Below the pieces are notes generated by a model. The model had not been told where the DNA came from, did no database searches, and was given only the letters and a program-made list of their open reading frames with translations. From Escherichia phage vB_EcoM_APEC, in the sequence record MT664721: a DNA stretch of 35,832 nucleotides. One strand, 5' to 3'. Shown one piece after another: positions 449 to 35,828 of this stretch; within the stretch, counting starts at the first letter, position 1, and each line of letters begins with the position of its first letter. The position numbers were made by a program, and so were the translations under genes.

Positions 449-450
449 AC

Positions 451-906
451 ATGGGTTCTTCAGCAGCAGCAATTATGCAAGGCGCTCAGGGCATAGTACA
501 GGGGGTTGGTCTTTATCAGGAAGGACGAGCCGCAGATAAACAATCGAAAGTTGATGCGGAACTGTATCAATCAGCAGCACGAGTAGAGGCTAAAAAGATT
601 CGTGAAGCCGCAGCCAATCAAAAGTCATCTGCAATCGCACAGGCCGCAGAGAATGGACTGGATGTAAGCACAGGCACACCTGTTGTGGTGAATGACTACA
701 TCACACAGCAGTCAGAACAGGATGCATGGATGACCATATTGAATGGTCGCGAGGCTGCATCAGTAACAAGACAGCAGGGTAAGGCAGCACGGCGAGCAGG
801 AACATGGGGCTTTGTTTCTTCTGCTACAGGTGGCTTGCTTGCTGCCAAGCAGACTTTAGATACAGCTAAGTCACAAAAAAGACAGACAGCACTTTCAAAG
901 GGGTAA
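451..906 (+). CDS. hypothetical virion protein (gp14-like position)
   Basis: ATG at 451 preceded by GGAG at 439-442; Ala/Gln-rich 152 aa; assigned by position only. The track's upstream extension overlaps the previous gene. Confidence 0.45.
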   Translation: MGSSAAAIMQGAQGIVQGVGLYQEGRAADKQSKVDAELYQSAARVEAKKIREAAANQKSSAIAQAAENGLDVSTGTPVVVNDYITQQSEQDAWMTILNGREAASVTRQQGKAARRAGTWGFVSSATGGLLAAKQTLDTAKSQKRQTALSKG

Positions 907-909
907 GTT

Positions 910-5558: not shown

Positions 5559-8089
5559 TCGTGAGAAAAGAATGTAAACAGGCAGTAGCACAGGCACTCG
5601 GCAAGGCAGAGCTTAGTACTCAGGAATCAATTGATATTGAGCAGCGCATTGCACAGGCTAAAACCAATCTGGCACGTCAAGATATACAAGCTTGGCGTAA
5701 CCTCTCACCTCTTGAACAACTCACCAAAGCAGGTGAACAGGTTGCAAAGGATATTACCGAACAGGCAAGACGCAAGAACATGATTGCGGCTCAGGATATT
5801 CTTATTCAATCACAAAACCTAGCCAAGCTTGACCATCCAACATTGTCATCCATGGAAGTAGTAGACCGACTCATTGCTGCCCATGGTGATATGTCTGGAA
5901 TTCAATCTATTGATTCTAAATCTCGTGCTATTGCTTCAACATATCGGGGCAGACTGGTGGACCTGTATTCAAATGTTAAAGGTGCAATAGGCGTATTTAC
6001 TGACAAGCAGTTGGTTCAGGACATTATCAGGGAGCGTTTTGGACAGAATACAGATAACGCCGTTGCCAAAAAAATATCAGATGAAATGGGCAAAGTCTTT
6101 GATGATATGCGAGAACGATTTAATCGCTCAGGTGGAGACATTGGTAAGCTGGACAATTGGGGATTACCTCAGACCCATGATGCAGCCAAGATGCTTAAAG
6201 CAGGAAAGGATGCATGGGTAAATGCTACAGAGAACATTGTCGATACCTCAAAATATATCCATGAAGACGGAACGTACTATACAGGCGACGAGATCAAGAA
6301 GCTGTTAGAGAATGCCTTCGATACAATCACCAGTGATGGTGCAAACAAGATTGAGATCGGCAGACAGGCAACAGGTGGTGGCACAAGTAAAGTCACTAAT
6401 CGCCACTCTGAGAGTCGTGTAATTCACTTTAAAGATGCAGATGCTTGGCTTGAGTATCAGGCAGACTTTGGTGGTATGCCATTTGTAGACCTTGTAGAAG
6501 CACATATTAATGGCCTGTCTAAGGATATTGCACTGGTTGAAAACCTAGGCAGCAATCCAAAAAACTCAATGAAAATCCTGATGGATGCCGCAGCCAAAAA
6601 AGACTTTGACAAGGGTATCGAAGCCAAAGACACACAGAAGACACGCAAACGCGCTCAAACCATGTTTGACGAACTAACAGGTGGTAATACACCAGAGTCG
6701 GAAGTATTGGCTAATCTTGGCATTGCATACCGTTCTATGAACGTTGCATCCATGCTGGGTGGTACAACATTATCATCTTTGACTGACCAAGCCATGATCA
6801 AAAAGACAGCAGATATTCACGGCATTGCTTTCCGTAAAACCTTTGGTGAACTGCTAACACAGCTTAACCCGAAGAACAAGGCAGATCGTGAACTTGCACA
6901 TAGCTTAGGCTTGGCAACAGAAGAAATGCTCGGCTCACTGGCTCGCTTTGCTGACGATGGTTTAACTTCTGTACACGGTAAAGCTGAGAAACTGGCAAGA
7001 GTTTCAAGTGGCGTGGCTACTCAGGTTATGCGCCTGTCCGGATTAAATGCATTAACTGCCGCATCCAAGGTTGGCTTTAGTAAAATGCTGATGAGCAAGT
7101 ATGGCGAACTTACACGTAACAAGGCTTGGAATGATTTGTCTGAAATGGACAGAGAACTACTAAGCAAAACCGGACTGTCAGAGCGAGCGTGGGAAGTGAT
7201 GCGTCTTGCTGAGCCTGTCATTGACCGCAAAGGCAATAAGCTCATGTCAAACCGTTCAATCTATGAAATACCAGACGATAAGCTTAAGGCGTTTGGCAAT
7301 CCTAAAAAGGTTCGTGATGAAGTGGCTACACAGTTTCAGGCACACTTACTTGACGAGCAAGGCATGGCGGTAGTAGAAGCTGGACTTCGAGAACGTACTT
7401 TCCTGACTGCTGGACTATCCAAAGGTTCAGTGATGGGAGAGATTGTTCGCTCAATGATGCAGTTTAAATCCTTCCCTGCTGCCTTCTTAATGCGTCACGG
7501 TAGCCGAGCAATGAGTAAGCCAACATTAGGCAGTAGGGTAGGCTATGCTGCATCCATTCTGGCAATGACGACAATACTTGGCGGTCTTGTAGTGCAGTTA
7601 AAAGAACTGGCAAATGGTAATGACCCTCAGACCATGTTTGACAGTGAAGACCCGAAAGTAACTGGCTCGTTCTTTGTTCGCTCAGTGGTACAGGGTGGTG
7701 GCCTATCTATTCTAGGTGACATTCTGGTTGCCGGTTCTGATACTTCGGGACGCGGTGTAGACTCATTCTTTGGTGGGCCATTCGCTCAAGATGTTAAATC
7801 TGTTGCTGGTGTTACGCTCGGCAATGCAACGCAGTATTATGAAGACAAAGATACTAATGCAGCTAACGAGCTGTATCGACTCGTAAAAGGCAAGATTCCC
7901 GCCCAAAATCTCTGGTACACTAAAGCAGCGGCGAACCGTTTAATGTTTGATGAAATTCAGGATATTGTCGCACCAGATTACCGTCAGAAGCTTTTAGACA
8001 AGGCGGAACGTGAGCAAAACCGTACAAGATTTTGGGGTGATGATCTTGGTGACATTCAAACACCAGACTTTGAGAAAGTTGTTCAGTAG
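5555..8089 (+). CDS. internal virion / ejection protein, 844 aa
   Basis: Large coupled ORF after the SLT protein; hydrophobic segment (ASILAMTTILGGLVVQL); assigned by position. Confidence 0.5.
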   Translation: MIVRKECKQAVAQALGKAELSTQESIDIEQRIAQAKTNLARQDIQAWRNLSPLEQLTKAGEQVAKDITEQARRKNMIAAQDILIQSQNLAKLDHPTLSSMEVVDRLIAAHGDMSGIQSIDSKSRAIASTYRGRLVDLYSNVKGAIGVFTDKQLVQDIIRERFGQNTDNAVAKKISDEMGKVFDDMRERFNRSGGDIGKLDNWGLPQTHDAAKMLKAGKDAWVNATENIVDTSKYIHEDGTYYTGDEIKKLLENAFDTITSDGANKIEIGRQATGGGTSKVTNRHSESRVIHFKDADAWLEYQADFGGMPFVDLVEAHINGLSKDIALVENLGSNPKNSMKILMDAAAKKDFDKGIEAKDTQKTRKRAQTMFDELTGGNTPESEVLANLGIAYRSMNVASMLGGTTLSSLTDQAMIKKTADIHGIAFRKTFGELLTQLNPKNKADRELAHSLGLATEEMLGSLARFADDGLTSVHGKAEKLARVSSGVATQVMRLSGLNALTAASKVGFSKMLMSKYGELTRNKAWNDLSEMDRELLSKTGLSERAWEVMRLAEPVIDRKGNKLMSNRSIYEIPDDKLKAFGNPKKVRDEVATQFQAHLLDEQGMAVVEAGLRERTFLTAGLSKGSVMGEIVRSMMQFKSFPAAFLMRHGSRAMSKPTLGSRVGYAASILAMTTILGGLVVQLKELANGNDPQTMFDSEDPKVTGSFFVRSVVQGGGLSILGDILVAGSDTSGRGVDSFFGGPFAQDVKSVAGVTLGNATQYYEDKDTNAANELYRLVKGKIPAQNLWYTKAAANRLMFDEIQDIVAPDYRQKLLDKAEREQNRTRFWGDDLGDIQTPDFEKVVQ

Positions 8090-8280: not shown

Positions 8281-8673
8281 ATGAAAGACATAGATATTTA
8301 TGACCTCGACCTGTCCGATTCAGATATTGATGAACTGGAACGGCGCAGAGAGTTAAGGATTAAAAAACGCATTAATGAACGACATGCTTTGCAGACTGCT
8401 TTAATGTGCGATGACCTGATTGACGAGTCAATGAAAATGGCAAACAGGGGATTAAAAGCAGTTGACCCTGAATCTAAAAACGAGTTCTTTGGATTGAGCA
8501 ATAAAGTTGCCACGCTTGCAGTAAAGATGCAGCAAATCCACTTGATGAAAGTCGGCTTGCTTCCTCCTGTTTCAGCGACAAAGGACACTCAGGAGAGCTA
8601 CGAGGCCAAAGTCATTAAAGAGTATGAAGAACGAGCACAGCGGCGCAAAGAACAAGTCACAAGAGTATCTTAA
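8281..8673 (+). CDS. putative terminase small subunit, 130 aa
   Basis: GGAGG at 8272-8276; sits immediately upstream of and overlapping the terminase large subunit; no motif recognised, positional call. Confidence 0.4.
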   Translation: MKDIDIYDLDLSDSDIDELERRRELRIKKRINERHALQTALMCDDLIDESMKMANRGLKAVDPESKNEFFGLSNKVATLAVKMQQIHLMKVGLLPPVSATKDTQESYEAKVIKEYEERAQRRKEQVTRVS

Positions 8674-10346
8674 TGAAGATTAGTTTCTCTGCTTTTTTTC
8701 TGATGTATGTTGAAGGTCGATTGGGGCTAGAAGCTCCCGACTTTCATTTAGATGCTTGTGACTTCCTGCAAGATTTTGCAATGGGTGGAGAGAATGACCC
8801 CGATGTGGCTGTACTAATGTTTCCGCGCGGCCACTCTAAATCTACCAATCTTGATATATTCAATGCTTGGCTAATTTATGAAGACCCTGAACATTGGATA
8901 TTACATCAGGGGACGGCAGACCGTGACGCTTACAAGTGTAGTCGCGGTACATTGGCCGTACTTAAAACCCATCCTCTAACTGAAAACAACGAGCTATTCA
9001 AGAAGCGAGAAGGAACTACATCTAAATGGTGGGTAAATGGCTCAACAGATGAGCGTTACGGTACGTTCTTTGCTGCTGGTATCTTATCCGGTGTGACTGG
9101 ACAACGTGCAACATTCATCGAAAATGATGACGTTGAAACACCAAAAACCACAAATAATCAAGAGAAGCGAGAGAAGCTTAAAACCACACTAGGCGAGCAA
9201 ACGCATATTGCTGTGCCGAACACCAAAACTTTATTTATTGGCACACCACACAGTCATGATTCACTGTATACGCACTTAATTGAAAAAGGTGCTAAGACGC
9301 TGATTCTAAAGATGTTTGAGAAGGAATATAGGATTGAAAAAGGACAGACTAAAGCGGTCATCCCTTTTGCACCAGTACATGCTTTTGCTGGAATCGGAAA
9401 AGGTGCTAAGTATCTCTATCCTGATAAAGATTATTCTGTTCATGAGATTGATGGTTTTTACCATATAGAAATCTTTGGCGAGCATAACCTTGTTGATTTC
9501 TACTCAAAAAGTATTTGGGAAAAGCGGTTTACTCCGAAGGAAATGGAGAAGCGCCGTGTTAAGTGCGAAACAATTAATGAGTGGGATTCACAGTATCAGA
9601 TGCACGCCCGACCTGTAGGCAATATGCGTCTTGACCCTGATTACCTGAAGCCATATTTAGAAGAGCCCCGACTTGTCACAGCCAATGGAGAAACACGGCT
9701 GTATATCGGTGAGAATAGAATTGTTTCCGTATCGGCCCACCTAGACCCATCATCAGGCAAGAAGAACCGCGATGTGTCAAGCTTTACCATTCTTTTCCAA
9801 GATGATATAGGTCGCTTATATTGGCATCGTTCTGTTGGTCTAACAGGAAAGATTATTAACGTTGATGAGGAAGGTAATATCTGTACAGGTGGTCAAGCGT
9901 GGACTGTCGCCGATTTGGTCAAAGAGTTTAACCTTCCTGCCGTGACGGTAGAAACAAACGGTATTGGGGGCCACGTTCCTGATAACCTTCTTGCAGTATT
10001 TAAAAAACGCAAGATTCGCTGCGCCGTTCAGGGCATACATGAAAGCAAGAACAAGAACATTCGTATCTTAGGGGCTATAGAAGGACCTTTATTGTCTGGC
10101 TATCTATATGCACATGAAAGCATTCTGAAAGATGAGAACGGCAACGATTCGGATATTGTTAAAAAAATGCGTGTATTTAACCCTGAAACACAAGATAATC
10201 CTGATGATGAGATTGATTCACTTGCGAAGGCAATCAGTAATGAGCCTGTTCGCATGGGCCGTAATCTTGAACATTTTAGCGATACCAGACCAGACTGGCG
10301 CGGTATCCAGACCAACACCAAAGCCAAGTCAGCACACAGATATTAA
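8673..10346 (+). CDS. terminase large subunit (T7 gp19-like DNA maturase B)
   Basis: N-terminal ATPase region LMFPRGHSKST resembles T7 gp19 FRGIGKS Walker A region; 557 aa. Confidence 0.85.
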   Translation: MKISFSAFFLMYVEGRLGLEAPDFHLDACDFLQDFAMGGENDPDVAVLMFPRGHSKSTNLDIFNAWLIYEDPEHWILHQGTADRDAYKCSRGTLAVLKTHPLTENNELFKKREGTTSKWWVNGSTDERYGTFFAAGILSGVTGQRATFIENDDVETPKTTNNQEKREKLKTTLGEQTHIAVPNTKTLFIGTPHSHDSLYTHLIEKGAKTLILKMFEKEYRIEKGQTKAVIPFAPVHAFAGIGKGAKYLYPDKDYSVHEIDGFYHIEIFGEHNLVDFYSKSIWEKRFTPKEMEKRRVKCETINEWDSQYQMHARPVGNMRLDPDYLKPYLEEPRLVTANGETRLYIGENRIVSVSAHLDPSSGKKNRDVSSFTILFQDDIGRLYWHRSVGLTGKIINVDEEGNICTGGQAWTVADLVKEFNLPAVTVETNGIGGHVPDNLLAVFKKRKIRCAVQGIHESKNKNIRILGAIEGPLLSGYLYAHESILKDENGNDSDIVKKMRVFNPETQDNPDDEIDSLAKAISNEPVRMGRNLEHFSDTRPDWRGIQTNTKAKSAHRY

Positions 10347-12867: not shown

Positions 12868-13206
12868 ATGGAAGATTTTGCAAAAGCTGTAGCGGATTAC
12901 TTCCGAAGCAATATAGGCTTGCTATCTGGCGTAGTGATAGGAATGCTTATTTATATTCTGACTGCGAAAAAAAAGACATGGCGAGAGAGGATTGTTAATG
13001 CTTCAGGTGGTGGCCTGCTGGCAATAGTTTTTGCTCCACACATTGCTACATTCTTTGACAAGCCGAATTACGCTGTGCCTATTGCGGTTCTTATTGTGTA
13101 TTTCAACGAGTGGTTACCAGAACTTATACAAACCTTTGCACCGAAATACATTAAAGTCCTCATTAAGCGTTTTACCGGAGTTGACCTAGATGACTCAAAT
13201 AAGTAA
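12868..13206 (+). CDS. holin-like membrane protein, 112 aa
   Basis: Two to three predicted hydrophobic helices; directly upstream of the endolysin. Confidence 0.5.
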   Translation: MEDFAKAVADYFRSNIGLLSGVVIGMLIYILTAKKKTWRERIVNASGGGLLAIVFAPHIATFFDKPNYAVPIAVLIVYFNEWLPELIQTFAPKYIKVLIKRFTGVDLDDSNK

Positions 13207-13474
13207 CTTCACATGGGGAGTGTTGCTAGAGAATCTAGCACTCTTTATTGTATTCCTGTGTATTGCAAGCGTGGTTATACAGCACATGCGAAAGCAAATT
13301 GTATTGGGCGTATTCTGGCATATATCTTTTGTTATTGGTCTAGTGATTACTTTTACACTAATACTTGACCCATATCCTAGAATATTTGATGAAGCACAAA
13401 CAGCATATAAGTTATTTATTGCTGTAATTGCCGTTGGACTCTGCAATAAAATAAGCAAAGAAGGTGGGTTCTAA
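13190..13474 (+). CDS. membrane protein, 94 aa (second holin / antiholin candidate)
   Basis: Multiple hydrophobic segments; overlaps previous gene; precedes the endolysin. Confidence 0.45.
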   Translation: MTQISNFTWGVLLENLALFIVFLCIASVVIQHMRKQIVLGVFWHISFVIGLVITFTLILDPYPRIFDEAQTAYKLFIAVIAVGLCNKISKEGGF

Positions 13475-13475
13475 T

Positions 13476-14084
13476 ATGATCATGACAGAGAAAGGCTTTG
13501 CTGTTTTAAGGTCACATTTTGGTAGCTTGAAGCAATCGCAAGTTGACGGAATTAATACCATTGTTGAGCAGTTCAATGCTCAGGGTGTGACCAACTACAA
13601 CCATGCAGCCTACATGCTCGCTACAACTTGGCATGAAACTGCAAAAACCATGCAGCCAATTGAAGAATATGGAAAGGGTAAAGGCCGTCCTTATGGAACA
13701 TGGTACAAGAACAGCAAGGGTCTGCTTTACAGCTTTATAAACGGATTTAAAAAGGTTGCCTATCTGTTCAATGACCATCCCCATCTCTATTATGGTCGTG
13801 GCTACGTGCAACTTACATGGTTTGAAAACTACCAGAGAGCATCCAAGAAACTCGGCGTAGACTTTATAAATAATCCAGGGCTTGCACTAGACCCTAAACC
13901 TGCTGCTGATATTATGATTGTCGGAATGCGTGAAGGTTGGTTTACCGGAAAGAAACTGGATGATTACATTTCAGGAAATAAAAAAGATTACGTGGGCGCA
14001 AGGAAGATTATCAACGGACTAGATAAAGCTAAACTCATTGCTGATTACTCTGCAATATTTGAAAAGGCTTTGCGCCAGCCATAA
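13476..14084 (+). CDS. endolysin, glycoside hydrolase family 19 (chitinase-like) type
   Basis: Motifs HETAK...YYGRGYVQLTW resemble GH19 catalytic region; ATG at 13476 with AAGGTGGG upstream (track starts at GTG 13464). Confidence 0.75.
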   Translation: MIMTEKGFAVLRSHFGSLKQSQVDGINTIVEQFNAQGVTNYNHAAYMLATTWHETAKTMQPIEEYGKGKGRPYGTWYKNSKGLLYSFINGFKKVAYLFNDHPHLYYGRGYVQLTWFENYQRASKKLGVDFINNPGLALDPKPAADIMIVGMREGWFTGKKLDDYISGNKKDYVGARKIINGLDKAKLIADYSAIFEKALRQP

Positions 14085-19497: not shown

Positions 19498-19754
19498 ACG
19501 AATCACAAAAAGCACTGGTGAATAACTTTGCTCAGTTCTTGGGTATATTGAATCTACCAGCCAATGACATATCTCCAAAAATAGATGCAGAAGGTAAAAT
19601 CTATTTTGAAGATCAGGAAACAATGAAAGCCTTCTCTGCATTCCGATATGCCTATGCAACAGGTTTTACTTCTGGTCGCAATGTCATGTATAAAAAACTG
19701 ACAGAACTGTCGGGAAAATACATGGCTGACCTTATGGCCGCAGCACCGAAATAG
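19494..19754 (+). CDS. hypothetical protein, 86 aa
   Basis: ATG overlapping the previous stop (ATGA) with AGGAG upstream. Confidence 0.45.
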   Translation: MNESQKALVNNFAQFLGILNLPANDISPKIDAEGKIYFEDQETMKAFSAFRYAYATGFTSGRNVMYKKLTELSGKYMADLMAAAPK

Positions 19755-19762
19755 GAGCTTAT

Positions 19763-19942
19763 ATGAAAAGCAAAATGACAGCAGCCATGTGGCTTGCTAA
19801 GATTCAATCTGAATGTAAGCACTTTTGGGTTCACGATAGTATGGGCTATCAAAAGAAGTGCAGCAGATGTGGAAAAGTGGAGCAACTTAAATTAACTACG
19901 CAATATTCAAAAACTTTTAAAGAAAGCTGGAATATTTATTAA
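19763..19942 (+). CDS. small Cys/His-rich protein, 59 aa
   Basis: ATG at 19763 with AGGAG upstream; ECKH...CSRCG pattern; below track cutoff; followed by a terminator. Confidence 0.35.
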   Translation: MKSKMTAAMWLAKIQSECKHFWVHDSMGYQKKCSRCGKVEQLKLTTQYSKTFKESWNIY

Positions 19943-19982
19943 AGTTTAGTTATATTGCAATAACTCACTTAAACCCTTTCCA

Positions 19983-20013
19983 AGCCCGGTGCCCTCACAC
20001 TGGGTTCTTTTTT
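19983..20013 (+). terminator. rho-independent terminator
   Basis: Imperfect 9 bp stem (AGCCCGGTG / CACTGGGTT with G-U pairs) followed by CTTTTTTG. Confidence 0.5.
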
Positions 20014-20015
20014 GC

Positions 20016-20043
20016 TTGCAAATAATATTAAAGCAATTATAAT
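20016..20043 (+). promoter_or_regulatory. sigma70-like promoter (TTGCAA, 16 nt, TATAAT)
   Basis: -35 TTGCAA at 20016-20021 and consensus -10 TATAAT at 20038-20043; GAGG at 20064-20067 and ATG at 20073 downstream. Confidence 0.5.
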
Positions 20044-20072
20044 AATAAAGCATACTAACAAGTGAGGTTAAA

Positions 20073-20258
20073 ATGTCTGCAAAAGAAAAAGCAAAACTGG
20101 CTTATAAAAAGCACTGTGCTGCGAAACTAAAAATTATCAATATCCGGTTTAACGTAGTTGATCATGAAGACGAAGCGCAAGCCTTTGAACATATCAAGTC
20201 GCAACCAAACCAGAAAAAATACATTCTTAAATTAGTAAAAGAGGACATGATTAAATGA
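20073..20258 (+). CDS. hypothetical basic protein, 61 aa
   Basis: First ORF downstream of the promoter at 20016-20043; GAGG RBS. Confidence 0.45.
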   Translation: MSAKEKAKLAYKKHCAAKLKIINIRFNVVDHEDEAQAFEHIKSQPNQKKYILKLVKEDMIK

Positions 20259-20890
20259 CTTTTCAAATCGGACAGGAAGTGGAAATTATAGGATTAGCAC
20301 CATTTGATGATAGATTCAATGTAGCTATAGGTGATAGAGGTATTATTATTAATATCAACACCAATTCTCATATAAAGATATCCAATCCAAAATTTACGGG
20401 AAGTGCTGCCGGAGAAGGTTTCTTTTATGCCCACAAGTCAAACGTAAGAATTGTTGAATCAAAACCTTTATACGAAGACTCAGGCAGAAACAAACTTAGA
20501 CTCTGGCTTAAGACTGTATGTAAAGAGTATGACTTTACCCTTGAGCAGCTATCATTAAATCTAGGATTCAACGAAAGCTATCTAAGCAATGTAGGCAGCA
20601 AGTCACGTTTTGAAAAACGCGGTGATATTAATTCAGAAGAATATAGAAAACTGGTTAATAATTTCCTTGTGCATGATTACAAAGAATGTAGACATACCAT
20701 GGCTCAGCTTGTTGAACAGATTGATAGCCTTGACGATGATCTGAGAGAGTGCAGGGGAGAAAACTACAAGTGCAATAGATACCTAGAACAAGCAAACAGG
20801 AATACCGAGTACTGGATGAGAAAGTTACCTAAAACCAGATTTCAGGCGTTTAAACTATTTATTAAAATGATGTTTGGAGGCCAGCCATGA
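20255..20890 (+). CDS. hypothetical protein with putative helix-turn-helix segment, 211 aa
   Basis: Central segment FTLEQLSLNLGFNESYLSNV resembles an XRE-type HTH; overlapping-stop coupling. Confidence 0.45.
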   Translation: MTFQIGQEVEIIGLAPFDDRFNVAIGDRGIIININTNSHIKISNPKFTGSAAGEGFFYAHKSNVRIVESKPLYEDSGRNKLRLWLKTVCKEYDFTLEQLSLNLGFNESYLSNVGSKSRFEKRGDINSEEYRKLVNNFLVHDYKECRHTMAQLVEQIDSLDDDLRECRGENYKCNRYLEQANRNTEYWMRKLPKTRFQAFKLFIKMMFGGQP

Positions 20891-21078
20891 CACCTGAAGA
20901 AATCAGAAAGAAAGCGCCAGAGGGAGCGACGCATTATATGAAGTCAATCATATTTTTGGATAGCGTTGACCTAATAACATATTTCAAGTGCGAAAATGGT
21001 AAATTCTTTGAATACTTCGCTCATCATTTCGCTAGGTACGAAACTGGTGTTCACCCAACCTTGATTAAGCCCCTCTAG
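20887..21078 (+). CDS. hypothetical protein, 63 aa (paralog of 14096..14293)
   Basis: Shared N- and C-terminal motifs with the minus-strand 65 aa protein; stop codon lies in the loop of the terminator hairpin. Confidence 0.5.
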   Translation: MTPEEIRKKAPEGATHYMKSIIFLDSVDLITYFKCENGKFFEYFAHHFARYETGVHPTLIKPL

Positions 21079-21090
21079 GGGCTTTTTATT
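21067..21090 (+). terminator. rho-independent terminator
   Basis: Hairpin AAGCCCC-TCTA-GGGGCTT followed by TTTTTATTTG. Confidence 0.65.
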
Positions 21091-29099: not shown

Positions 29100-29152
29100 C
29101 GCGCGCGTGAGATAATGTTATTATCAGGTTTGTTTATATAGGAGTGTCGAAA

Positions 29153-29383
29153 ATGACCGAGAAGAAAGAAACCACAGAAAACGTTCAGGAAAAGGCAACT
29201 GAAGCAACAGTATCTCAAAAGGAATTTGACAAGGTGAAGGCTGAGAATGCCGAGCTTCGTAAAAAGAACGTGGCCTTGCACAATGAGAACCAACGCCTGA
29301 AAGACAGTGTTGCACCTCAGAAGCCTAAAGGTGATTTCGTTTTTGACGAGAAGAAGGGCTATACATTCAAGGAGCGTAAGTAA
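29153..29383 (+). CDS. hypothetical charged/coiled-coil protein, 76 aa
   Basis: ATG at 29153 with GGAG RBS; first gene of the structural operon. Confidence 0.5.
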   Translation: MTEKKETTENVQEKATEATVSQKEFDKVKAENAELRKKNVALHNENQRLKDSVAPQKPKGDFVFDEKKGYTFKERK

Positions 29384-29574
29384 TGAGCGTACGTCCTAAA
29401 GTTGTTCAACAAAAGTCCGCTGAACAGATTGAGAAAGAGGCGAAGGACTTGGCCACGCTTGAAGCGAATAAGGAAGCTGCACAGCGGCGTGGTGGTCGTT
29501 CGACTGCACTCAGTCCAATTGGTCAGGGCACAATGAATGGTCTTAAAACTTTACTAGGTGGTGGCGGACAATGA
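29383..29574 (+). CDS. hypothetical protein, 63 aa
   Basis: Coupled ORF immediately upstream of the portal gene. Confidence 0.45.
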   Translation: MSVRPKVVQQKSAEQIEKEAKDLATLEANKEAAQRRGGRSTALSPIGQGTMNGLKTLLGGGGQ

Positions 29575-31187
29575 GCGAACTGGCAACGAGTAAGATTAAA
29601 ATGTTGGGCAATCTGAAAGTTGCCCGCTCCAAACATGAGCCAAAATGGATTGACTGTTATAAATATGGTGCTCCTGAGCGTGAGCCTGATTTTACTGATG
29701 TAAGTAGTGATGATCAGAAAAGTCGTGTGAATCTTTATGACGGTACTGCTGCTGATAGTGTCCAGTTGCTTGCGAGTTCTATTATATCAGGAACCGTGCC
29801 TCCTAACGTTCGTTGGTTTAAGGCTGTACCTAGTGGTCTTGAAGATGATGAAATGACAGAGGCAGATCAGTGGCTTGATGATGTATGCGAAATGATGTGG
29901 CGCAAGATTCATGCTGGCAATTTCAACGTAGAAGCGTATGACTGCATCCAAGACTATGTTGTGGGTGGCTGGGGTGTTCTGTATATCACACAGGAAGGTG
30001 ACGGTTATCGCTTTGAGAACTGGCCGTTAGGTAATTGCTGGTTTTCAACAACTAAGCAAGGTGGTCTGGTTGACATTATCTATCATGTTGTTTCCATGTC
30101 TGCAAAACAGATGGTAGAAGAATATGGTGAGAATGAGGTTCATGAGTCAGTTAGACGCGCTGCGAAGGATGATGTAGAGCGAAACTACACTGTTCTTCAT
30201 GTAATTGAACCGCGCAAAGATGGCAGTGAGAATGCAGACTTACCAGAGAAAATGCCGTTTGCTTCATACCATATTGATATTGATAACAAGCATCTGCTTA
30301 AAGAGGGTGGTTATCGTAGTTTTCCTTGCGCTGTGCCACGTGCTCACAAGATTGCCAATTCAGTCTATGCGGTTGGGCAGATGTTTAAGGCTTTACCAGA
30401 TGCCAAGTCGTTAAATGAAATGCAACGCATGTTGTTAAACAGCATGGATGTAAATGTAAATGGCTTTTGGGCTGCTGCTGATGACGGTGTAATCAATCCT
30501 GCAACGTTCCGTATTGGACCAATGGAAATGGTCATGGTTCGCAGCATGGAGCAACGTCCACAGAACCTGATGCCAAATACAAACGTAAACTTGGCTGACT
30601 GGATGGTCTCTGGTAAACAGCAAGCAATCCGCAAGGTGTTAATGTCTGATCAGCTACAGGCGCAGGATGGGCCACAAATGACAGCAACCGAGGTTTATGT
30701 TCGTGTAGACCTGATTCGTCAGTTGTTAGGCCCAATGTTCGGACGTTTGCAAGATGAATTCATGATGCAGATATTAGACCGATGCTTCTCTATTGGTTAC
30801 TCTGCTGGATGGTTTGGTGAAGCGCCAGAAGAATTGCTTGGTGAAGAACTGAAGTTTAGATTCGAGAATCCATTTGCACGTTCACAGCGTTTAGAGGAAG
30901 TTACAGCGATTGAGCGCTTGATGGGTAGTGTTGGATTAATGGCTGAAGCATTCCCTGAAGTTCTGGATAACATCAATGCAGATGCAGCATATAACGTTTT
31001 ACAGGCTGGTTATGGAGTTCCTGCATCAGTAAGCAGAACAGCAGATCAGGTGATTAAATTACGTGAGCAGCAGCAGCAGCAGAAACAGCAAATGGAACAA
31101 CAGCAAAGACAGCAAGGCGCTGAGGATGCAATGGCAGGAGCAGCTTTAGACGTAATGACACAGCAAGGGGCTAACAATGATTTATAA
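29571..31187 (+). CDS. portal (head-tail connector) protein
   Basis: 538 aa, close to T7 gp8 size; Gln-rich C-terminus; upstream of scaffold and capsid genes. Confidence 0.75.
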   Translation: MSELATSKIKMLGNLKVARSKHEPKWIDCYKYGAPEREPDFTDVSSDDQKSRVNLYDGTAADSVQLLASSIISGTVPPNVRWFKAVPSGLEDDEMTEADQWLDDVCEMMWRKIHAGNFNVEAYDCIQDYVVGGWGVLYITQEGDGYRFENWPLGNCWFSTTKQGGLVDIIYHVVSMSAKQMVEEYGENEVHESVRRAAKDDVERNYTVLHVIEPRKDGSENADLPEKMPFASYHIDIDNKHLLKEGGYRSFPCAVPRAHKIANSVYAVGQMFKALPDAKSLNEMQRMLLNSMDVNVNGFWAAADDGVINPATFRIGPMEMVMVRSMEQRPQNLMPNTNVNLADWMVSGKQQAIRKVLMSDQLQAQDGPQMTATEVYVRVDLIRQLLGPMFGRLQDEFMMQILDRCFSIGYSAGWFGEAPEELLGEELKFRFENPFARSQRLEEVTAIERLMGSVGLMAEAFPEVLDNINADAAYNVLQAGYGVPASVSRTADQVIKLREQQQQQKQQMEQQQRQQGAEDAMAGAALDVMTQQGANNDL

Positions 31188-31530
31188 AATGTTTCAGTAT
31201 TCATTAATTTTAGTTATACTTGCGCTAACAGTTATTGGCATTATCACTATCGTCTACACGGTTCGAGAGTATCGCAATCAGCGCAATGTGCTTAAATCCA
31301 CAAAAGAACTGATTCATACTTGGGCCAATCCTGATATGAGAGCAACGCCACAGGATTACCAAAGAGTGTTTGAAATTGATGCAAGCGGACGGCGTGTTCT
31401 GATGCAGTTGGTCAAGAAGTACATGCAAGAACCGTTTGATGTAGATGATAGAAAGACAGCATACAGATGCGGCGCAAGAGAACCAGTCGCATTTATTATT
31501 GAACAGATACAAAGAGGACGTAATCAATGA
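31177..31530 (+). CDS. small protein with N-terminal transmembrane helix, 117 aa
   Basis: Hydrophobic N-terminus YSLILVILALTVIGIITIVY; lies between the portal and scaffold genes. Confidence 0.45.
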   Translation: MIYKMFQYSLILVILALTVIGIITIVYTVREYRNQRNVLKSTKELIHTWANPDMRATPQDYQRVFEIDASGRRVLMQLVKKYMQEPFDVDDRKTAYRCGAREPVAFIIEQIQRGRNQ

Positions 31531-32180
31531 GTGAATCTGAAGCAGCGGTAGAGACTACAGAGCAAACCGATTCATCTGCTCAACAGGAAAGTCAGGCAAC
31601 TACTGAAACCACACAGGATGATAGTCAACAGGCTCAAGAACAGAATCAGCAGCAAGGAGGTGATTTAACTGCTGACTCATACAATATTGAGCTTGAAGGT
31701 TTTGACTTTAACGAGTTTAAAGGTCTTGAAGAAAACAAGGCATTCTTGGGCAAGGCTGCTGAACTCGGCATTACCAATGATCAGCTACAGTATTTAATTG
31801 GTGAATACAATAGCCGCGCTGCCGGATTGCTCGGTGCAAGTGCAGAGCTAGACACAGAAGCCACAATAGGTAGCCTTAAGGAAGTTTGGGGTGACAACTT
31901 TGATACCAATGTGGTTAATGCTCAAAAGGCATTACGTGCTGCTGGATTTACAGATGAAGATTTAAATAAGCCAGAGATCGGCAATAACGTTGCTTTGGCT
32001 AAACTCGCGGCGCATTTTGGCGCACAAATGAATGAAGACGCGACACCGCAAGGTGCTCCGGCTTCTAATGCAATTAATATTCAGGACTTACTAAGCAATC
32101 CTGCGTATGACGATGTTTCTCATCCTGACCACAATGATGTTGTGAAACAGGTTGAGGCATACTACTCTAAAAACCGCTGA
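31527..32180 (+). CDS. scaffolding protein
   Basis: Very acidic, Gln/Glu/Thr-rich N-terminus; between portal and capsid genes. Confidence 0.6.
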   Translation: MSESEAAVETTEQTDSSAQQESQATTETTQDDSQQAQEQNQQQGGDLTADSYNIELEGFDFNEFKGLEENKAFLGKAAELGITNDQLQYLIGEYNSRAAGLLGASAELDTEATIGSLKEVWGDNFDTNVVNAQKALRAAGFTDEDLNKPEIGNNVALAKLAAHFGAQMNEDATPQGAPASNAINIQDLLSNPAYDDVSHPDHNDVVKQVEAYYSKNR

Positions 32181-32194
32181 TCAGGAGCTAACAC

Positions 32195-33085
32195 ATGACA
32201 GCAGATACTATTAAAGCGAATTATGTGCGCGAGTTTAGTGATAAGTTTGCGCTTGACGTTCAACAAAAGCAGTCACGTTTAGAGCGTGGGGTAACCAATC
32301 ATGGTCGTATCGTTGGTGCTGACTTCACGATTAACAAGTTTGGCACTGTTGAAATGCAGGACAAGACAGTTCGATTAAAAGAAACTGATCTTACACTCAT
32401 TCCAACCTCTGCACGTATCGTGACGATGCGAGATAAGATTCTTGCAACGGCGATTGATGCGACAGATGAAACCAAGATGAAGGCCGACTTGCGTGGCCCA
32501 ATCCGTAATACATTCTTCGGTGCTGTAAACCGTACCAAAGATGACATTATCTACAATGCCTTGCTGGGTGATATTGCATCTAAAACCACTTACTCGGATT
32601 CTGGTATCGCTCAGGTATCTCTGCCGGCTTCTCAGAAGATTACGCTAACCACTGGTGTGACTTCTGGCATGTTTACCCAAATCCTTTCAATGTTTATGGG
32701 TAACGAAGTGGGCGTAGAAGATGGTGAAGAAATCTATATCACCTATAACGCTGCCATGATGAAAGCCATTCTGGACAATGAAACTCTGACCAATGCAGAC
32801 TATGCAGCAGTTAAGATGCTTTGGGAGGGTAACATTTCTGGTAAATGGTTGGGCATGAACTGGATTCCTTATAACCGTATGAAAGTCGGTTCTACTGAAG
32901 GTACTCGTGTTGGTGTGGCTTGGGCTAAGTCTGGTATTGAATACGGCTGGAACGTTCCGCAAGACTTCCGTATCGATGTTCGTCCAGACCTTGAATACGC
33001 TACTCAGTTCGGTGGTATCTACTCGTTCGGTGCTGGTCGTAATGACGAGAAGAAAGTTGTGGCGTTTGAGTTCTTGAGTGCTTAA
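32195..33085 (+). CDS. major capsid protein
   Basis: 296 aa ORF after the scaffold gene, followed by a strong intrinsic terminator; positional call. Confidence 0.65.
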   Translation: MTADTIKANYVREFSDKFALDVQQKQSRLERGVTNHGRIVGADFTINKFGTVEMQDKTVRLKETDLTLIPTSARIVTMRDKILATAIDATDETKMKADLRGPIRNTFFGAVNRTKDDIIYNALLGDIASKTTYSDSGIAQVSLPASQKITLTTGVTSGMFTQILSMFMGNEVGVEDGEEIYITYNAAMMKAILDNETLTNADYAAVKMLWEGNISGKWLGMNWIPYNRMKVGSTEGTRVGVAWAKSGIEYGWNVPQDFRIDVRPDLEYATQFGGIYSFGAGRNDEKKVVAFEFLSA

Positions 33086-33120
33086 TTGCTAACAAGCCTG
33101 AATAAAATACATTAAACTAA

Positions 33121-33146
33121 GGGTATCTTGAAGATGCCCTTTTTTA
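33121..33146 (+). terminator. rho-independent terminator after the capsid gene
   Basis: GGGTATC-TTGAA-GATGCCC (one G-U pair) followed by TTTTTT. Confidence 0.6.
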
Positions 33147-33157
33147 ATGGAGCAGAT

Positions 33158-33721
33158 ATGAATAATACAAAAGTGTCTATTGCGAATTATGCTTTGGCCT
33201 TGATTGGTTCAGAACCGATACAGGACTTTGAAAGCTCAGTCAAGAATGCAAAGTTAATCAGAAGTATGTATGACATAAAGCGACGTGCATTGCTTCGGGA
33301 CCACCCTTGGTCATTTGCCAGAAAGCGTATAAAGATTGCACCATCGGCAGAAAAGCCGGATTTCGGTTATAGCAATAAATTTGCATTGCCGCGTGATTTC
33401 ATTCGATTGCTTGACCCAAACCAGTTTGATTTCACTATTGAAGGTGCTTATGTCCTTGTCAATGCTGAAGAACTGCAACTGTCATACATCTATGATTGCG
33501 ACAATGAAGCAATATGGGATGATTCATTTGCTCTCTGCATGTCTTATGCGTTGGGCGCTGACTTGTGCAAGCCGATTACAGGCAGCGATTCCTCAAGGGA
33601 TACATTGCTAATCATGCTACGTGATGAACTGAGAGCAGCCAAGAGCATTAATGGTCAGCAGCTACCATCTGGCAAGTTTCAGAATAACTATGTTTCTCCA
33701 TACATTGCAGCGAGATACTGA
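33158..33721 (+). CDS. tail tubular protein A (gp11-like)
   Basis: ATG at 33158 with GGAG upstream; 187 aa, close to T7 gp11 size; the track's TTG start at 33128 lies inside the terminator hairpin. Confidence 0.6.
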   Translation: MNNTKVSIANYALALIGSEPIQDFESSVKNAKLIRSMYDIKRRALLRDHPWSFARKRIKIAPSAEKPDFGYSNKFALPRDFIRLLDPNQFDFTIEGAYVLVNAEELQLSYIYDCDNEAIWDDSFALCMSYALGADLCKPITGSDSSRDTLLIMLRDELRAAKSINGQQLPSGKFQNNYVSPYIAARY

Positions 33722-33722
33722 T

Positions 33723-35828
33723 ATGGCACTAAATATAATCAAGTCTAATTTCAGTTCCGGTGAGCTTGACCCGATACTCTCTACTCGCGGCGATGTGGCG
33801 CAATATCATAACGGTGCAAAAGAGCTGACCAACGTCATTGCACTGGTAGAAGGTGGAGTTAAGAAACGTGCAGGAACTCGCTATATTCGCAAAGGAACAA
33901 CATCTGACTATGTTCGGATGCTGCCATTTGCGCCTAGTGCTTCACAGCCGTTCTTTATCATCTTAGGGGTAGGTAAGGCAACCATTGTTAATGCAACCAC
34001 TCTAGCAGTCGTAACCACAGTGACCACGCCATACAACACAGTGCAACGCGTTAAAGATGTTCAGTACATTAACTCGCGTTACACCTTGTTCTTCACCCAC
34101 CCTGATTTTCCAGTTCAGCAACTTCGGACAAGTGCAGATTATGCGGATTGGAGTTGGACAAAATTAATTTTTGATATACCACCATTGGCAGAGAGTGGGC
34201 GCTCACCTAACAGTACATTGCAACCAGGTGCAAAAGAGGTTGGGGCGTCAATTCTGCTTAATTCAAGTCCATATTCCAATTGGTCAGCAACACAGCAGTA
34301 CTACATTGGAGATCGTGTTTATTACAATTCTTCCTATTGGGAAGCTGTAAGTGACAACTTGAACTCACCGCCTTCCGGTTCAAATCCAAATTGGGTGTAT
34401 GTCCCTGAAAGCCGGCCTAATATTTTTAGTCCATCTGATGTGGGTTCTATTATAAAAATTAACGGTGGTCTGGTAAGAGTCACAGAGTTTACTAATGGTT
34501 GGGCTGTGCGTGGAACTGTTCTGGTTAAGCTTAATTCTACGGTTCAGGCGCTCGGCAGATCATGGACAATTACAGGTGGCGCTTATAATGCAACTGATGG
34601 TTATCCGCGTTGCTGCACCTTCTTTAAGCAGCGACTTGTGCTGGGTGGTACTAGAAAATATCCAAACATGGTCTGGTTTAGCCGGATTGGTGACCCTCAA
34701 AACTTCCTTGAAACCACAAAGGATGCGGATGCATTTAGTGTTGCTCCTGCCTCAGATCGTTCTGATAATATCTTGCACCTAGTTCAGTCAAGAGGTGTTG
34801 TGGCTTTAACTGGCGGTTCTGAGTTTCTGATTGATTCAAATGAAGCATTGACCCCGACTACTGTACAGATTACAGAGCATACGGCGTATGGTGCTTATCC
34901 AGATGCTCGGCCTACTCGTGTTGCAAATGAATTGTTGTTTGTACAGCGTGGTGGCGAGCGATTAAGAGCATTATCCTATCGTTACGAAGTGGATGGTCTG
35001 GTCTCGCCAGACATTAGCATTCTGTCTGCACACATTACCCGAAACAATGGTGGGATTGCTGAGCTGTCCTATCAGCAAGAACCTAATAGTCTGGTATGGG
35101 TGGTTTTGGAAAACGGAAAGGTTGCAGGTGTGACATTAAACCGCGAGCAAGAGGTCATTGCTTGGGCATTGGAAGATTTTAATGCTGAGGTGCTCTCTAT
35201 TGTAAGTACACCCACATTGCTTGGTTCTGATAAAACCTTTGCACTCATCAAACGGCTAGATGGTCAGGTCTGGCTAGAACAGCTTACGCAGGATGCATTA
35301 ACTGACTGTGAAGTAGGTTATACGGTAAGCAATAACACCATTACAGCGACACATCTAAACGGATTTGCTGCATCAGGTATTGAGAATGTTCAAGCGTGGA
35401 TGATGGTTAATGGTGCTTATACTCAGGTCAAGATCAAGTCAAGATCAGGCAATGTTCTAACCCTTCAGGATGATGACTACACCGGAAAGACGGTTTATGT
35501 TGGTGCGCCAATCAAGTGTAGAATATCGCTACTGCCACCTGAATTTGCTCAATATCCCTCTTCTATGCGTACCTCAAAAATAACGATTCATTCAGTCTAT
35601 GCGACGATTTATAATACACTTGGCTTACGTGTAAATGGTGAAGATGTGGATGATATACGTTTTGATGATAATCCGCTGAACCCGCTTAAACCGTTTAGCC
35701 GTGTGGTCAATATTGGACAGTATGGGTGGACAACGGTTGAAGACTTGGACATGGTAATTGAACATGACAGACCATTGCCATTTCATTTGCAAGCAGTCAA
35801 TCTCGAATTAACGGTGAATAACAAATGA
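33723..35828 (+). CDS. tail tubular protein B (gp12-like)
   Basis: ATG at 33723, 1 nt after the gp11-like stop; about 701 aa; the track's upstream extension overlaps the previous gene. Confidence 0.65.
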   Translation: MALNIIKSNFSSGELDPILSTRGDVAQYHNGAKELTNVIALVEGGVKKRAGTRYIRKGTTSDYVRMLPFAPSASQPFFIILGVGKATIVNATTLAVVTTVTTPYNTVQRVKDVQYINSRYTLFFTHPDFPVQQLRTSADYADWSWTKLIFDIPPLAESGRSPNSTLQPGAKEVGASILLNSSPYSNWSATQQYYIGDRVYYNSSYWEAVSDNLNSPPSGSNPNWVYVPESRPNIFSPSDVGSIIKINGGLVRVTEFTNGWAVRGTVLVKLNSTVQALGRSWTITGGAYNATDGYPRCCTFFKQRLVLGGTRKYPNMVWFSRIGDPQNFLETTKDADAFSVAPASDRSDNILHLVQSRGVVALTGGSEFLIDSNEALTPTTVQITEHTAYGAYPDARPTRVANELLFVQRGGERLRALSYRYEVDGLVSPDISILSAHITRNNGGIAELSYQQEPNSLVWVVLENGKVAGVTLNREQEVIAWALEDFNAEVLSIVSTPTLLGSDKTFALIKRLDGQVWLEQLTQDALTDCEVGYTVSNNTITATHLNGFAASGIENVQAWMMVNGAYTQVKIKSRSGNVLTLQDDDYTGKTVYVGAPIKCRISLLPPEFAQYPSSMRTSKITIHSVYATIYNTLGLRVNGEDVDDIRFDDNPLNPLKPFSRVVNIGQYGWTTVEDLDMVIEHDRPLPFHLQAVNLELTVNNK

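What the first reader, a model, noticed from the sequence alone, without database searches (positions are those of the whole stretch)
31177..31530. Membrane-anchored small protein inserted between portal and scaffold genes
T7-like modules normally run portal then scaffold directly. Here a 117 aa ORF with an N-terminal TM helix overlaps the portal stop and is coupled to the scaffold gene. It may be a moron-like insertion, for example superinfection exclusion or an assembly factor.
Basis: partly seen in the sequence, partly recalled or inferred. Interest (0 to 1): 0.4.

Follow-up and report, generated by a model that had tools for sequence, protein, structure and literature searches.

The report
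Membrane-anchored Bbp19-family head-module protein
The small membrane-anchored gene between the portal and scaffold genes is real, but it is a conserved member of a widespread phage family of unknown function (Bbp19 / epsilon15 gp5) that always sits there, not a foreign insertion, and it most likely helps build the phage head.

Summary
The window is the complete genome of Escherichia phage vB_EcoM_APEC (MT664721). The ORF at 31177-31530 (+) exists as described. It encodes 117 aa with an N-terminal hydrophobic helix, overlaps the portal gene by 11 nt and overlaps the next gene by ATGA.

It is not a moron. Its C-terminal ~60 aa match Pfam PF25181 (Phage_Bbp19) above the curated cut-off. This family includes Bordetella phage BPP-1 Bbp19 and Salmonella phage epsilon15 gp5. 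Across 143 loci, the family gene lies directly after the portal gene in 134 and directly before the scaffold-like gene in 124. No promoter or terminator flanks it, and its composition matches its neighbours.

The family has two architectures. Short forms (66-90 aa) are the soluble core alone. Long forms add an N-terminal transmembrane helix and a linker of about 23-99 aa, and the APEC protein is a short-linker long form. Charge distribution places the core in the cytoplasm. AlphaFold2 gives a confident model (pLDDT 95.9) with no informative match to solved structures.

Function is untested. My best inference is a procapsid assembly accessory factor, absent from the mature virion, acting with portal and scaffold and tethered to the inner membrane in this lineage. 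The GenBank name 'sigma factor regulator' is unsupported.

The parts
31177..31530 (+). Complete ORF of 117 aa plus stop. It is a Bbp19-family protein, deposited in GenBank as 'sigma factor regulator' of phage vB_EcoM_APEC.
   Evidence: All substitutions relative to 10 relatives are synonymous.
31165..31170 (+). Shine-Dalgarno-like AAGGGG, 6 nt upstream of the ATG and inside the 3' end of the portal gene.
   Evidence: Read directly. This is a consensus resemblance only.
31177..31187 (+). 11-nt overlap between the ORF start and the portal stop, suggesting translational coupling.
   Evidence: Coordinates. Relatives show overlaps of -4, -8 or -11 nt.
31198..31263 (+). N-terminal transmembrane signal-anchor helix, about residues 8-29.
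   Evidence: The Kyte-Doolittle 19-mer mean is 2.8 at residues 11-29. AlphaFold2 models a helix over 2-50 with pLDDT above 90. The flanks carry 1 K/R on the N side and 5 on the C side.
31264..31341 (+). Basic helical linker, about residues 30-55. It is the short counterpart of the roughly 23-99-aa linker seen in other long forms, many of which look coiled-coil-like.
   Evidence: Coiled-coil families give weak Pfam hits on long forms.
31342..31524 (+). Bbp19 core domain, residues 56-116: three helices at 58-67, 69-82 and 91-116. The Pfam match covers residues 61-110.
   Evidence: PF25181 scores 38.9 bits against a cut-off of 25. tblastn to Piluca aligns residues 56-116. BFVD matches are to Bbp19-like models.
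31527..31530 (+). ATGA overlap of the ORF stop with the start of the scaffold-like gene.
29571..31187 (+). Portal gene (538 aa), the upstream partner in the conserved block.
   Evidence: PF12236, E 4.4e-102. phrog_332.
31527..32180 (+). Scaffold-like gene (217 aa, acidic/Q-rich N-terminus), the downstream partner in the conserved block.
   Evidence: phrog_3742 at E 1e-46 and phrog_458. It occupies the position equivalent to BPP-1 Bbp18 and epsilon15 gp6. The assignment is by position and composition, not by experiment.
32195..33085 (+). Major capsid protein gene (296 aa), the end of the conserved head block.
   Evidence: PF19821, E 1.3e-54.

Best explanation
The ORF is the vB_EcoM_APEC member of the Bbp19 family (Pfam PF25181; BPP-1 Bbp19, epsilon15 gp5). 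This family is a small, conserved late gene of the podovirus head-morphogenesis block: portal, Bbp19-like, scaffold-like, major capsid protein (PF19821).

Shown: family membership, conserved position, coupling to both neighbours, a confident helical model, and two family architectures (soluble core only, or TM helix + linker + core).

Inferred from the positive-inside rule: the N-terminal helix is an N-out/C-in signal anchor, so the three-helix core faces the cytoplasm and is tethered to the inner membrane.

Inferred mechanism: the protein is made together with portal and scaffold by coupled translation. It binds one of them during nucleation of the procapsid, acts as an assembly accessory factor or chaperone, and is not kept in the mature virion. 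In the APEC/Acinetobacter-prophage lineage the anchor would place head initiation at the inner membrane, the logic known for T4 portal assembly on the membrane with gp40.

The identity and conservation part is near certain. The assembly-factor role is the most likely of the candidates but is untested.
For: 1. Family membership. PF25181 scores 38.9 bits against a cut-off of 25. All 85 aligned family members hit PF25181 and no other family consistently. Epsilon15 gp5 scores 70 bits and Bbp19 63.8 bits.

2. Synteny. The gene lies between portal and scaffold-like genes, upstream of the MCP, in Piluca, TPWB-05, BPP-1 and epsilon15. The same holds in diverse metagenomic loci for both short and TM forms. 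In 143 loci the portal is adjacent upstream in 134 of the 137 where a portal was detected. The scaffold-like gene is adjacent downstream in 124 of 133, and the MCP is downstream in 127 of 127.

3. No autonomous expression signals and no compositional anomaly. The gene overlaps both neighbours.

4. Purifying selection. All 7-12 nucleotide differences in each of 10 relatives are synonymous.

5. Architecture. A profile search of 1.84 billion representative proteins found 94 relatives, all 193 aa or shorter, none fused to another domain. Long forms carry an N-terminal TM helix and short forms do not.

6. Topology. In 39 TM forms the N-side flanks hold 1 K/R in total and the C-side flanks hold 113. 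In 38 of 39 the C side carries more.

7. Structure. The AlphaFold2 model has pLDDT 95.9 and is all-helical, with no enzyme-like fold.

8. Indirect evidence for absence from virions. The epsilon15 virion components named in PMC12391199 are gp4, gp7, gp10, gp15, gp16/17 and gp20, and gp5 is not among them. LUZ24 gp64, a positional analogue, is not annotated as a particle protein. The Pa223 virion LC-MS list holds no protein from that slot.
Against: No experiment on any family member was found. Literature searches for Bbp19, PF25181 and 'Bbp19-like' returned nothing relevant.

Absence from virions is argued from incomplete or analogous data. No full proteome of a phage carrying a PF25181 gene was accessible.

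The T4 gp40 analogy is functional only. There is no homology (hhalign probability 0.06%), and gp40 has no classical TM helix.

Most family members lack the anchor, so membrane tethering cannot be essential to the core function.

Many of the 143 surveyed loci are near-duplicates: 60 encode 77-aa forms and 39 encode 161-aa forms.
Confidence: 0.45

Rival explanations
1. It is a DNA-packaging accessory factor. The core domain would bridge or regulate the portal-terminase interaction, in the way lambda gpFI stimulates prohead-terminase docking, rather than acting in procapsid nucleation.
For: The gene is adjacent to and coupled with the portal gene. The protein is small, helical and apparently non-structural. 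Portal adjacency is kept in 134 of 137 loci. The role of lambda gpFI is from my own knowledge.
Against: The terminase genes lie far from this block in this genome: TerL is at 8673-10346. In L021 the gene stays with scaffold and MCP although no PF12236 portal is adjacent. No similarity to any known packaging factor was found. A membrane anchor is hard to reconcile with packaging of free proheads.
Confidence: 0.15
2. It is a minor virion or internal protein that is bound at the portal inside the capsid and ejected into the host. In the long forms the hydrophobic helix would insert into the host membrane at infection.
For: Podovirus ejection proteins often carry hydrophobic helices, and some sit around the portal, for example Pa223 gp54 and DEV gp72. 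The gene is next to the portal gene. No complete virion proteome for a PF25181-carrying phage could be read.
Against: A full T7-like internal-virion set is encoded elsewhere in this genome: an acetyltransferase, a 167-aa phrog_418 internal virion protein, and proteins of 679, 870 and 844 aa. The epsilon15 components named in PMC12391199 do not include gp5. Most family members have no hydrophobic helix. A helix this hydrophobic at the extreme N-terminus would be inserted into the producer cell's membrane as it is translated.
Confidence: 0.15
3. It is a moron or accessory gene, for example a membrane protein that excludes superinfecting phages.
For: It is a small membrane-anchored protein in what appears to be a temperate phage lineage, since relatives are Acinetobacter prophages. 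T7 itself lacks a gene in this slot (my knowledge).
Against: The position is conserved across distant phages. There is no flanking promoter or terminator. The GC content matches the neighbours. The gene overlaps both neighbours, so it is expressed with the late head genes and not in lysogens. Soluble homologues without a TM helix sit in the same slot. PADLOC gave no hit.
Confidence: 0.04
4. It is a membrane-bound regulator of a sigma factor (the GenBank product name), or a lysis protein such as a holin or antiholin.
For: There is a weak Pfam hit to Sigma_reg_N over the TM region, E 0.0041. The protein has a single N-terminal TM helix.
Against: The Sigma_reg_N score of 17.8 bits is below the 26.3-bit cut-off, and only 1 of 85 family members gives that hit. 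The lysis cassette is elsewhere: a holin-like ORF at 12868 and a GH19 endolysin at 13464-14084. There are no holin-family hits. The conserved part of the protein is the soluble core, not the TM helix.
Confidence: 0.03

Closest known systems
Bordetella phage BPP-1 Bbp19 and Salmonella phage epsilon15 gp5 (Pfam PF25181 Phage_Bbp19; phrog_528)
   Same: They share a homologous ~60-aa helical core. They occupy the same slot, directly upstream of the scaffold-like gene and the PF19821 capsid gene and downstream of the PF12236 portal. All are small standalone proteins of unknown function.
   Different: Bbp19 (115 aa) and gp5 (98 aa) have no hydrophobic helix. Their N-terminal parts are charged. BPP-1 has an extra gene, bbp20 (Gp10-like), between portal and bbp19. 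The APEC core is a divergent member: 38.9 bits against 64-70 bits.
Acinetobacter prophage and Piluca/TPWB-05 'Bbp19 family protein' (157-161 aa)
   Same: They have the same architecture: an N-terminal TM helix starting MI.., then a linker, then the core. They occupy the same slot. Identity over the core is 39%.
   Different: They carry a helical linker about 45 aa longer, rich in E, K and Q, and an acidic C-terminal tail (..NDPNYSEVENDA). The APEC protein lacks both.
T4 gp40 (membrane-associated initiator of head vertex assembly)
   Same: This is a functional analogy only. Both are small proteins (114 aa against 117 aa), both are associated with the membrane, and gp40 is needed to start head assembly at the portal vertex (annotation, plus my knowledge of T4 head assembly).
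   Different: There is no sequence relationship (hhalign probability 0.06%). gp40 has no classical TM helix (best Kyte-Doolittle mean 0.83). Gene 40 is not linked to the T4 portal gene.
LUZ24 gp64 (71 aa) and its Pa223 counterpart
   Same: Each is a small gene that sits between the portal and scaffold genes and overlaps the scaffold start. gp64 is not annotated as a particle protein, and no protein from that slot is in the Pa223 virion LC-MS list.
   Different: No homology is detectable (HMM score -0.5; hhalign probability 0.25%). gp64 has no TM helix.

Membership tests
Pfam PF25181 Phage_Bbp19 (Bbp19-like phage protein) | The HMM score is above the curated gathering threshold. | tested here: met
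   38.9 bits against a cut-off of 25, E 7.8e-10, residues 61-110. The source database also lists PF25181 for this protein.
Pfam PF25181 Phage_Bbp19 (Bbp19-like phage protein) | The gene sits in the head block next to the portal and scaffold-like genes, as in the namesake BPP-1 and in epsilon15. | tested here: met
   In the 143-locus survey it is portal-adjacent in 134 of 137 and scaffold-adjacent in 124 of 133.
Pfam PF25181 Phage_Bbp19 (Bbp19-like phage protein) | The core is a small helical fold shared with other family members. | tested here: met
   The AlphaFold2 model has pLDDT 95.9. The best BFVD matches apart from the protein itself are Bbp19-like domain proteins, with probability 1.00 and TM-score 0.42-0.47 normalised to the query.
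Moron (autonomously expressed accessory insert in a late operon) | It has its own promoter and terminator flanking the gene. | tested here: not met
   No + strand promoter-like or terminator-like site lies between 30103 and 32194. The gene overlaps both neighbours.
Moron (autonomously expressed accessory insert in a late operon) | It is sporadically present among related genomes. | tested here: not met
   It is present at the same slot in every related locus examined.
Moron (autonomously expressed accessory insert in a late operon) | Its base composition differs from that of the flanking genes. | tested here: not met
   GC is 0.41-0.44 across the ORF and 0.43-0.47 in the neighbouring genes.
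Sigma factor regulator (PF13800 Sigma_reg_N; the GenBank product name) | The HMM score is above the curated threshold and the hit is shared by homologues. | tested here: not met
   17.8 bits against a cut-off of 26.3, over the TM region only. Only 1 of 85 family members gives this hit.
T4 gp40-type head vertex assembly chaperone | It shows sequence homology to gp40. | tested here: not met
   hhalign probability 0.06%.
T4 gp40-type head vertex assembly chaperone | It is required for portal-initiated head assembly at the inner membrane. | not testable with these tools
   This needs mutant analysis and localisation experiments. Only the membrane anchor and the cytoplasmic orientation are inferred here.
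Holin or lysis protein | It is located in the lysis cassette and matches a holin family. | tested here: not met
   The lysis cassette is at 12868-14084. There is no holin hit in Pfam or PHROGs.
Known anti-phage defence or exclusion proteins (PADLOC-DB) | It matches a defence-system protein model. | tested here: not met
   The APEC protein gave no family. Piluca gp38 gave only a weak hit (E 0.0069) to ZorB over residues 1-75, which include its TM helix.

The most novel reading that the evidence does not exclude
In one lineage of epsilon15/BPP-1-type podoviruses (APEC, Piluca, Acinetobacter prophages), procapsid assembly is nucleated on the cytoplasmic face of the inner membrane. A dedicated single-pass tether would do this, with its Bbp19 core capturing the portal or scaffold. 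The variable linker of about 23-99 aa would set the distance from the membrane. This would be an independently evolved counterpart of T4's membrane-initiated head assembly, and it would give the whole uncharacterised Bbp19 / epsilon15 gp5 family a function as a portal/scaffold nucleation factor.
Probability: 0.15. Interest if true: 0.6.

Novelty: new member of a known kind. Interest (0 to 1): 0.28.

Why it matters
Bbp19 / epsilon15 gp5 is a conserved gene of the head-assembly block in phages that serve as structural-biology models (epsilon15, BPP-1), and I found no functional description of it. The anchored variants give a testable handle. If the cytoplasmic core binds portal or scaffold, the anchor predicts membrane-associated procapsid initiation in a podovirus, something established so far mainly for T4.

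In practical terms, the result corrects a misleading database name ('sigma factor regulator'). It also shows that this gene should not be counted as a moron, cargo gene or exclusion gene when phage genomes are screened, for example for therapy candidates.

Tried and rejected
1. Single-sequence homologue search. It found only the protein's own cluster, so a profile of four syntenic homologues was needed.

2. AlphaFold2 on a 6-sequence alignment. The result was poor (pLDDT 56). The 85-sequence alignment gave pLDDT 95.9.

3. Fold searches.
- Foldseek against PDB gave nothing below E = 2.
- BFVD gave only uncharacterised Bbp19-like models.

4. PDB sequence-profile searches with A1 and A3 gave only chance-level hits.

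5. NCBIfam and PADLOC gave nothing meaningful.

6. Homology to T4 gp40 and LUZ24 gp64 was rejected.

7. Literature. There was no paper on Bbp19, PF25181 or epsilon15 gp5 function. The epsilon15 genome and proteome papers PMC2698709, PMC1559657 and PMC3832910 are not held. The BPP-1 capsid paper identified only the two major bands.

8. Scans for related loci failed for the very diverse alignments A3 and A5. Both scans of the species-representative genomes found nothing.

9. A neighbour-joining tree of the ~57-column core was too weakly resolved to say whether the TM anchor arose once or several times.

10. A motif shared by the 63-aa ORF upstream of the portal and epsilon15 gp3 is not significant by BLASTP (E = 90).
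Full report
**Identity of the window**

The 117-aa product is identical to a protein of Escherichia phage vB_EcoM_APEC, deposited as 'sigma factor regulator'. The published genome (MT664721) is 35,832 bp with 41.3% GC, exactly the window length (PMC8229158). The window is therefore that complete genome.

**The observation**

The ORF runs from 31177 to 31530 on the + strand and encodes 117 aa.
- Its ATG lies 11 nt inside the 3' end of the portal gene (29571-31187; PF12236, E 4e-102).
- Its stop overlaps the ATG of the next gene at 31527 as ATGA.
- An AAGGGG motif lies 6 nt upstream of the start.
- Residues 11-29 have a 19-residue Kyte-Doolittle mean of 2.8.
- The confident AlphaFold2 model has one long helix over residues 2-50.

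Ten metagenomic contigs carrying the same protein differ from the window at 7-12 nucleotides inside the ORF. All differences are synonymous. Their portal genes differ at 72-91 nucleotides and 4-8 amino acids. The loci were retrieved by exact protein identity, so this is a biased sample, but it is still what a coding frame under constraint looks like.

**What the gene is**

The C-terminal half matches Pfam PF25181 (Phage_Bbp19) at 38.9 bits against a cut-off of 25. It also matches two PHROGs of unknown function.

tblastn against annotated phages found homologues in Alcaligenes phage Piluca and in Acinetobacter phage records.
- In Piluca (gp38, 161 aa) the homologue lies between the portal and a ~207-aa gene that precedes the major capsid protein.
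- Acinetobacter phage TPWB-05, found through its portal gene, has a 157-aa homologue in the same slot.
- The family namesake, BPP-1 Bbp19, lies in the order portal (bbp21), bbp20, bbp19, bbp18 (scaffold-like, historically 'protease'), bbp17 (MCP).
- Epsilon15 gp5 is a strong PF25181 member (70 bits) and sits between portal gp4 and gp6/gp7.

Bbp19-type sequences occur in 64 annotated phage records infecting Pseudomonas, Escherichia, Salmonella, Caulobacter, Klebsiella and others, usually abutting the portal gene.

**How conserved the position is**

I collected 143 loci that encode a Bbp19-like ORF. They came from annotated phages, IMG/VR contigs and metagenomic contigs. I scored their ORFs with HMMs for portal, scaffold-like protein and MCP.

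| Neighbour | Result |
|---|---|
| Portal directly upstream (gap or overlap of 60 nt or less) | 134 of the 137 loci where a portal was detected |
| Scaffold-like gene directly downstream | 124 of 133 |
| MCP downstream | 127 of 127 |

Many loci are near-duplicates, but the pattern also holds in each of the diverse single look-ups. Exceptions show that either junction can be broken by an inserted gene: L073/L074 and L088, and L021. BPP-1 itself has bbp20 between portal and bbp19.

**Tests for a moron**

- No + strand promoter-like or terminator-like site flanks the ORF. The only + strand terminator-like hairpin in the region follows the capsid gene.
- GC content is indistinguishable from the neighbours.
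- The lysis cassette is elsewhere: a holin-like ORF at 12868 and a GH19 endolysin at 13464-14084.
- PADLOC gave nothing for the APEC protein.

The moron or exclusion reading is therefore rejected. The 'sigma factor regulator' label rests on a sub-threshold hit (17.8 bits against 26.3) over the TM segment, and none of the other 84 aligned relatives shares that hit.

**Family architecture**

A profile search of 1.84 billion representative proteins found 94 relatives, none longer than 193 aa and none fused to another domain. They fall into two classes.
- Short forms (66-90 aa) are just the core. Its consensus is ..TP..Y..VFE....G..VL.DL...F......GG....RET..R.GQ..V..FI..QIN.A.., often followed by an acidic tail.
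- Long forms (117-193 aa) begin with a very hydrophobic helix (MI..IAVLAILLLIA..) followed by a helical linker rich in E, K and Q.

In 39 anchored representatives the 15 residues after the helix hold 113 Lys/Arg in total, against 1 before it. The C side is richer in 38 of 39. By the positive-inside rule the core is cytoplasmic. This also fits the soluble relatives, which have no signal peptide.

Linker length ranges from about 23 to 99 residues. The APEC protein, at 26, is at the short end and lacks the acidic tail.

A crude tree of the core places anchored forms in several places and puts the APEC protein on a long branch. It is too weak to count gains and losses.

**Structure**

With 85 sequences, AlphaFold2 gives pLDDT 95.9 and pTM 0.64. 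The model has helix 2-50, then three helices at 58-67, 69-82 and 91-116.
- Foldseek against PDB gave no hit below E = 2.
- BFVD returned only uncharacterised Bbp19-like proteins.
- PDB sequence-profile searches gave nothing.

There is no sign of an enzyme fold and no match to a solved virion component.

**Mechanism**

Shown:
- The gene is a conserved small late gene, coupled to portal and scaffold.
- The protein is helical.
- It is either soluble or anchored with a cytoplasmic core.

Inferred:
- It acts in procapsid assembly as a factor that is not kept in the virion.

Support for absence from virions is indirect.
- The epsilon15 virion components named in a recent paper are gp4, gp7, gp10, gp15, gp16/17 and gp20, not gp5 (PMC12391199).
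- LUZ24 has an unrelated 71-aa gene (gp64) in the same slot that is not annotated as a particle protein.
- The LC-MS list of the related phage Pa223 holds no protein from that slot.
- Hardies et al. note small genes of unknown function that co-descend with portal, scaffold and MCP in podovirus core modules (PMC10386132).

The anchor suggests that in this lineage the partner, portal or scaffold, is held at the inner membrane. This resembles T4, where head assembly starts on the membrane with gp40. However, gp40 is not homologous and has no classical TM helix.

Rivals that remain open are a packaging accessory role and a minor virion or ejection protein. The latter is weakened because a complete T7-like internal-virion set is encoded elsewhere in the genome.

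**Novelty and score**

The protein is a divergent, anchored member of a family that is already defined (Pfam, PHROGs, NCBI 'Bbp19 family protein') but has no known function. I rate it 'new member of a known kind'.

It is of modest interest. The finding as written (an inserted moron) is wrong, and the gene is ordinary for its lineage. The family is nonetheless an unstudied conserved head gene in model phages, and the anchored variants give a concrete hypothesis to test.

Noticed in passing
window 31177-31530; GenBank MT664721: The deposited product name 'sigma factor regulator' appears to come from a sub-threshold Sigma_reg_N hit on the transmembrane segment (17.8 bits against a cut-off of 26.3). 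The supported name is Bbp19 family protein.
   Followed up: yes
whole window: The phage is named vB_EcoM (myovirus, E. coli host), but the genome encodes a podovirus-type apparatus: T7-type portal, tubular tail A and B, acetyltransferase and internal virion proteins. GC is 41.3%. Its DNA and protein relatives are Acinetobacter and Alcaligenes phages and prophages. The head block has no close match in 5,426 complete E. coli genomes. The morphotype and natural host assignment look questionable.
   Followed up: partly
window 33651-35828 and 23-8089: The tubular tail B ORF runs to within 4 nt of the end of the record. The genes that follow it in relatives (acetyltransferase, a small internal virion protein, then 679-, 870- and 844-aa proteins) are at the start of the window. 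The linear record is therefore opened in the middle of the structural operon.
   Followed up: partly
window 31527-32180 and loci L007, L008, L010: Among near-identical relatives the scaffold-like protein varies in length (217, 214 or 208 aa), presumably through indels in its acidic/Q-rich N-terminal low-complexity region. The adjacent 117-aa protein is invariant.
   Followed up: no
window 29383-29574 (63 aa) and 29144-29383 (79 aa): Two small ORFs directly upstream of the portal are conserved in all close relatives as 63- and 76-aa genes and match PHROGs of unknown function. The 63-aa product ends in a G-R-S-T-A-L...K-T-L-L-G motif reminiscent of epsilon15 gp3, but BLASTP does not support homology (E = 90).
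   Followed up: partly
L013 (BPP-1) 20751-21080 and 19715-20404: BPP-1 Bbp20, between portal and Bbp19, matches PF21628 'Gp10-like' (the epsilon15 staple protein family) at 72 bits. Bbp20 and the scaffold-like Bbp18 end in similar C-terminal peptides (..RLYGASSMSA and ..RRLYAASNMNP), possibly a shared capsid-binding or processing motif.
   Followed up: no
L148 (LUZ24) 39879-40094: LUZ24 gp64 (71 aa) occupies the same portal-to-scaffold slot and overlaps the scaffold start, but it shows no detectable homology to the Bbp19 family. Unrelated small genes in this slot may be a general feature of podovirus head modules.
   Followed up: partly
window 33119-33141: A + strand terminator-like hairpin with a T-run lies just after the capsid gene. 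It overlaps the longest-ORF TTG start (33128) of the tubular tail A gene. Most relatives call a shorter product (187 aa, one 195 aa), so the real start is probably downstream of the hairpin.
   Followed up: no
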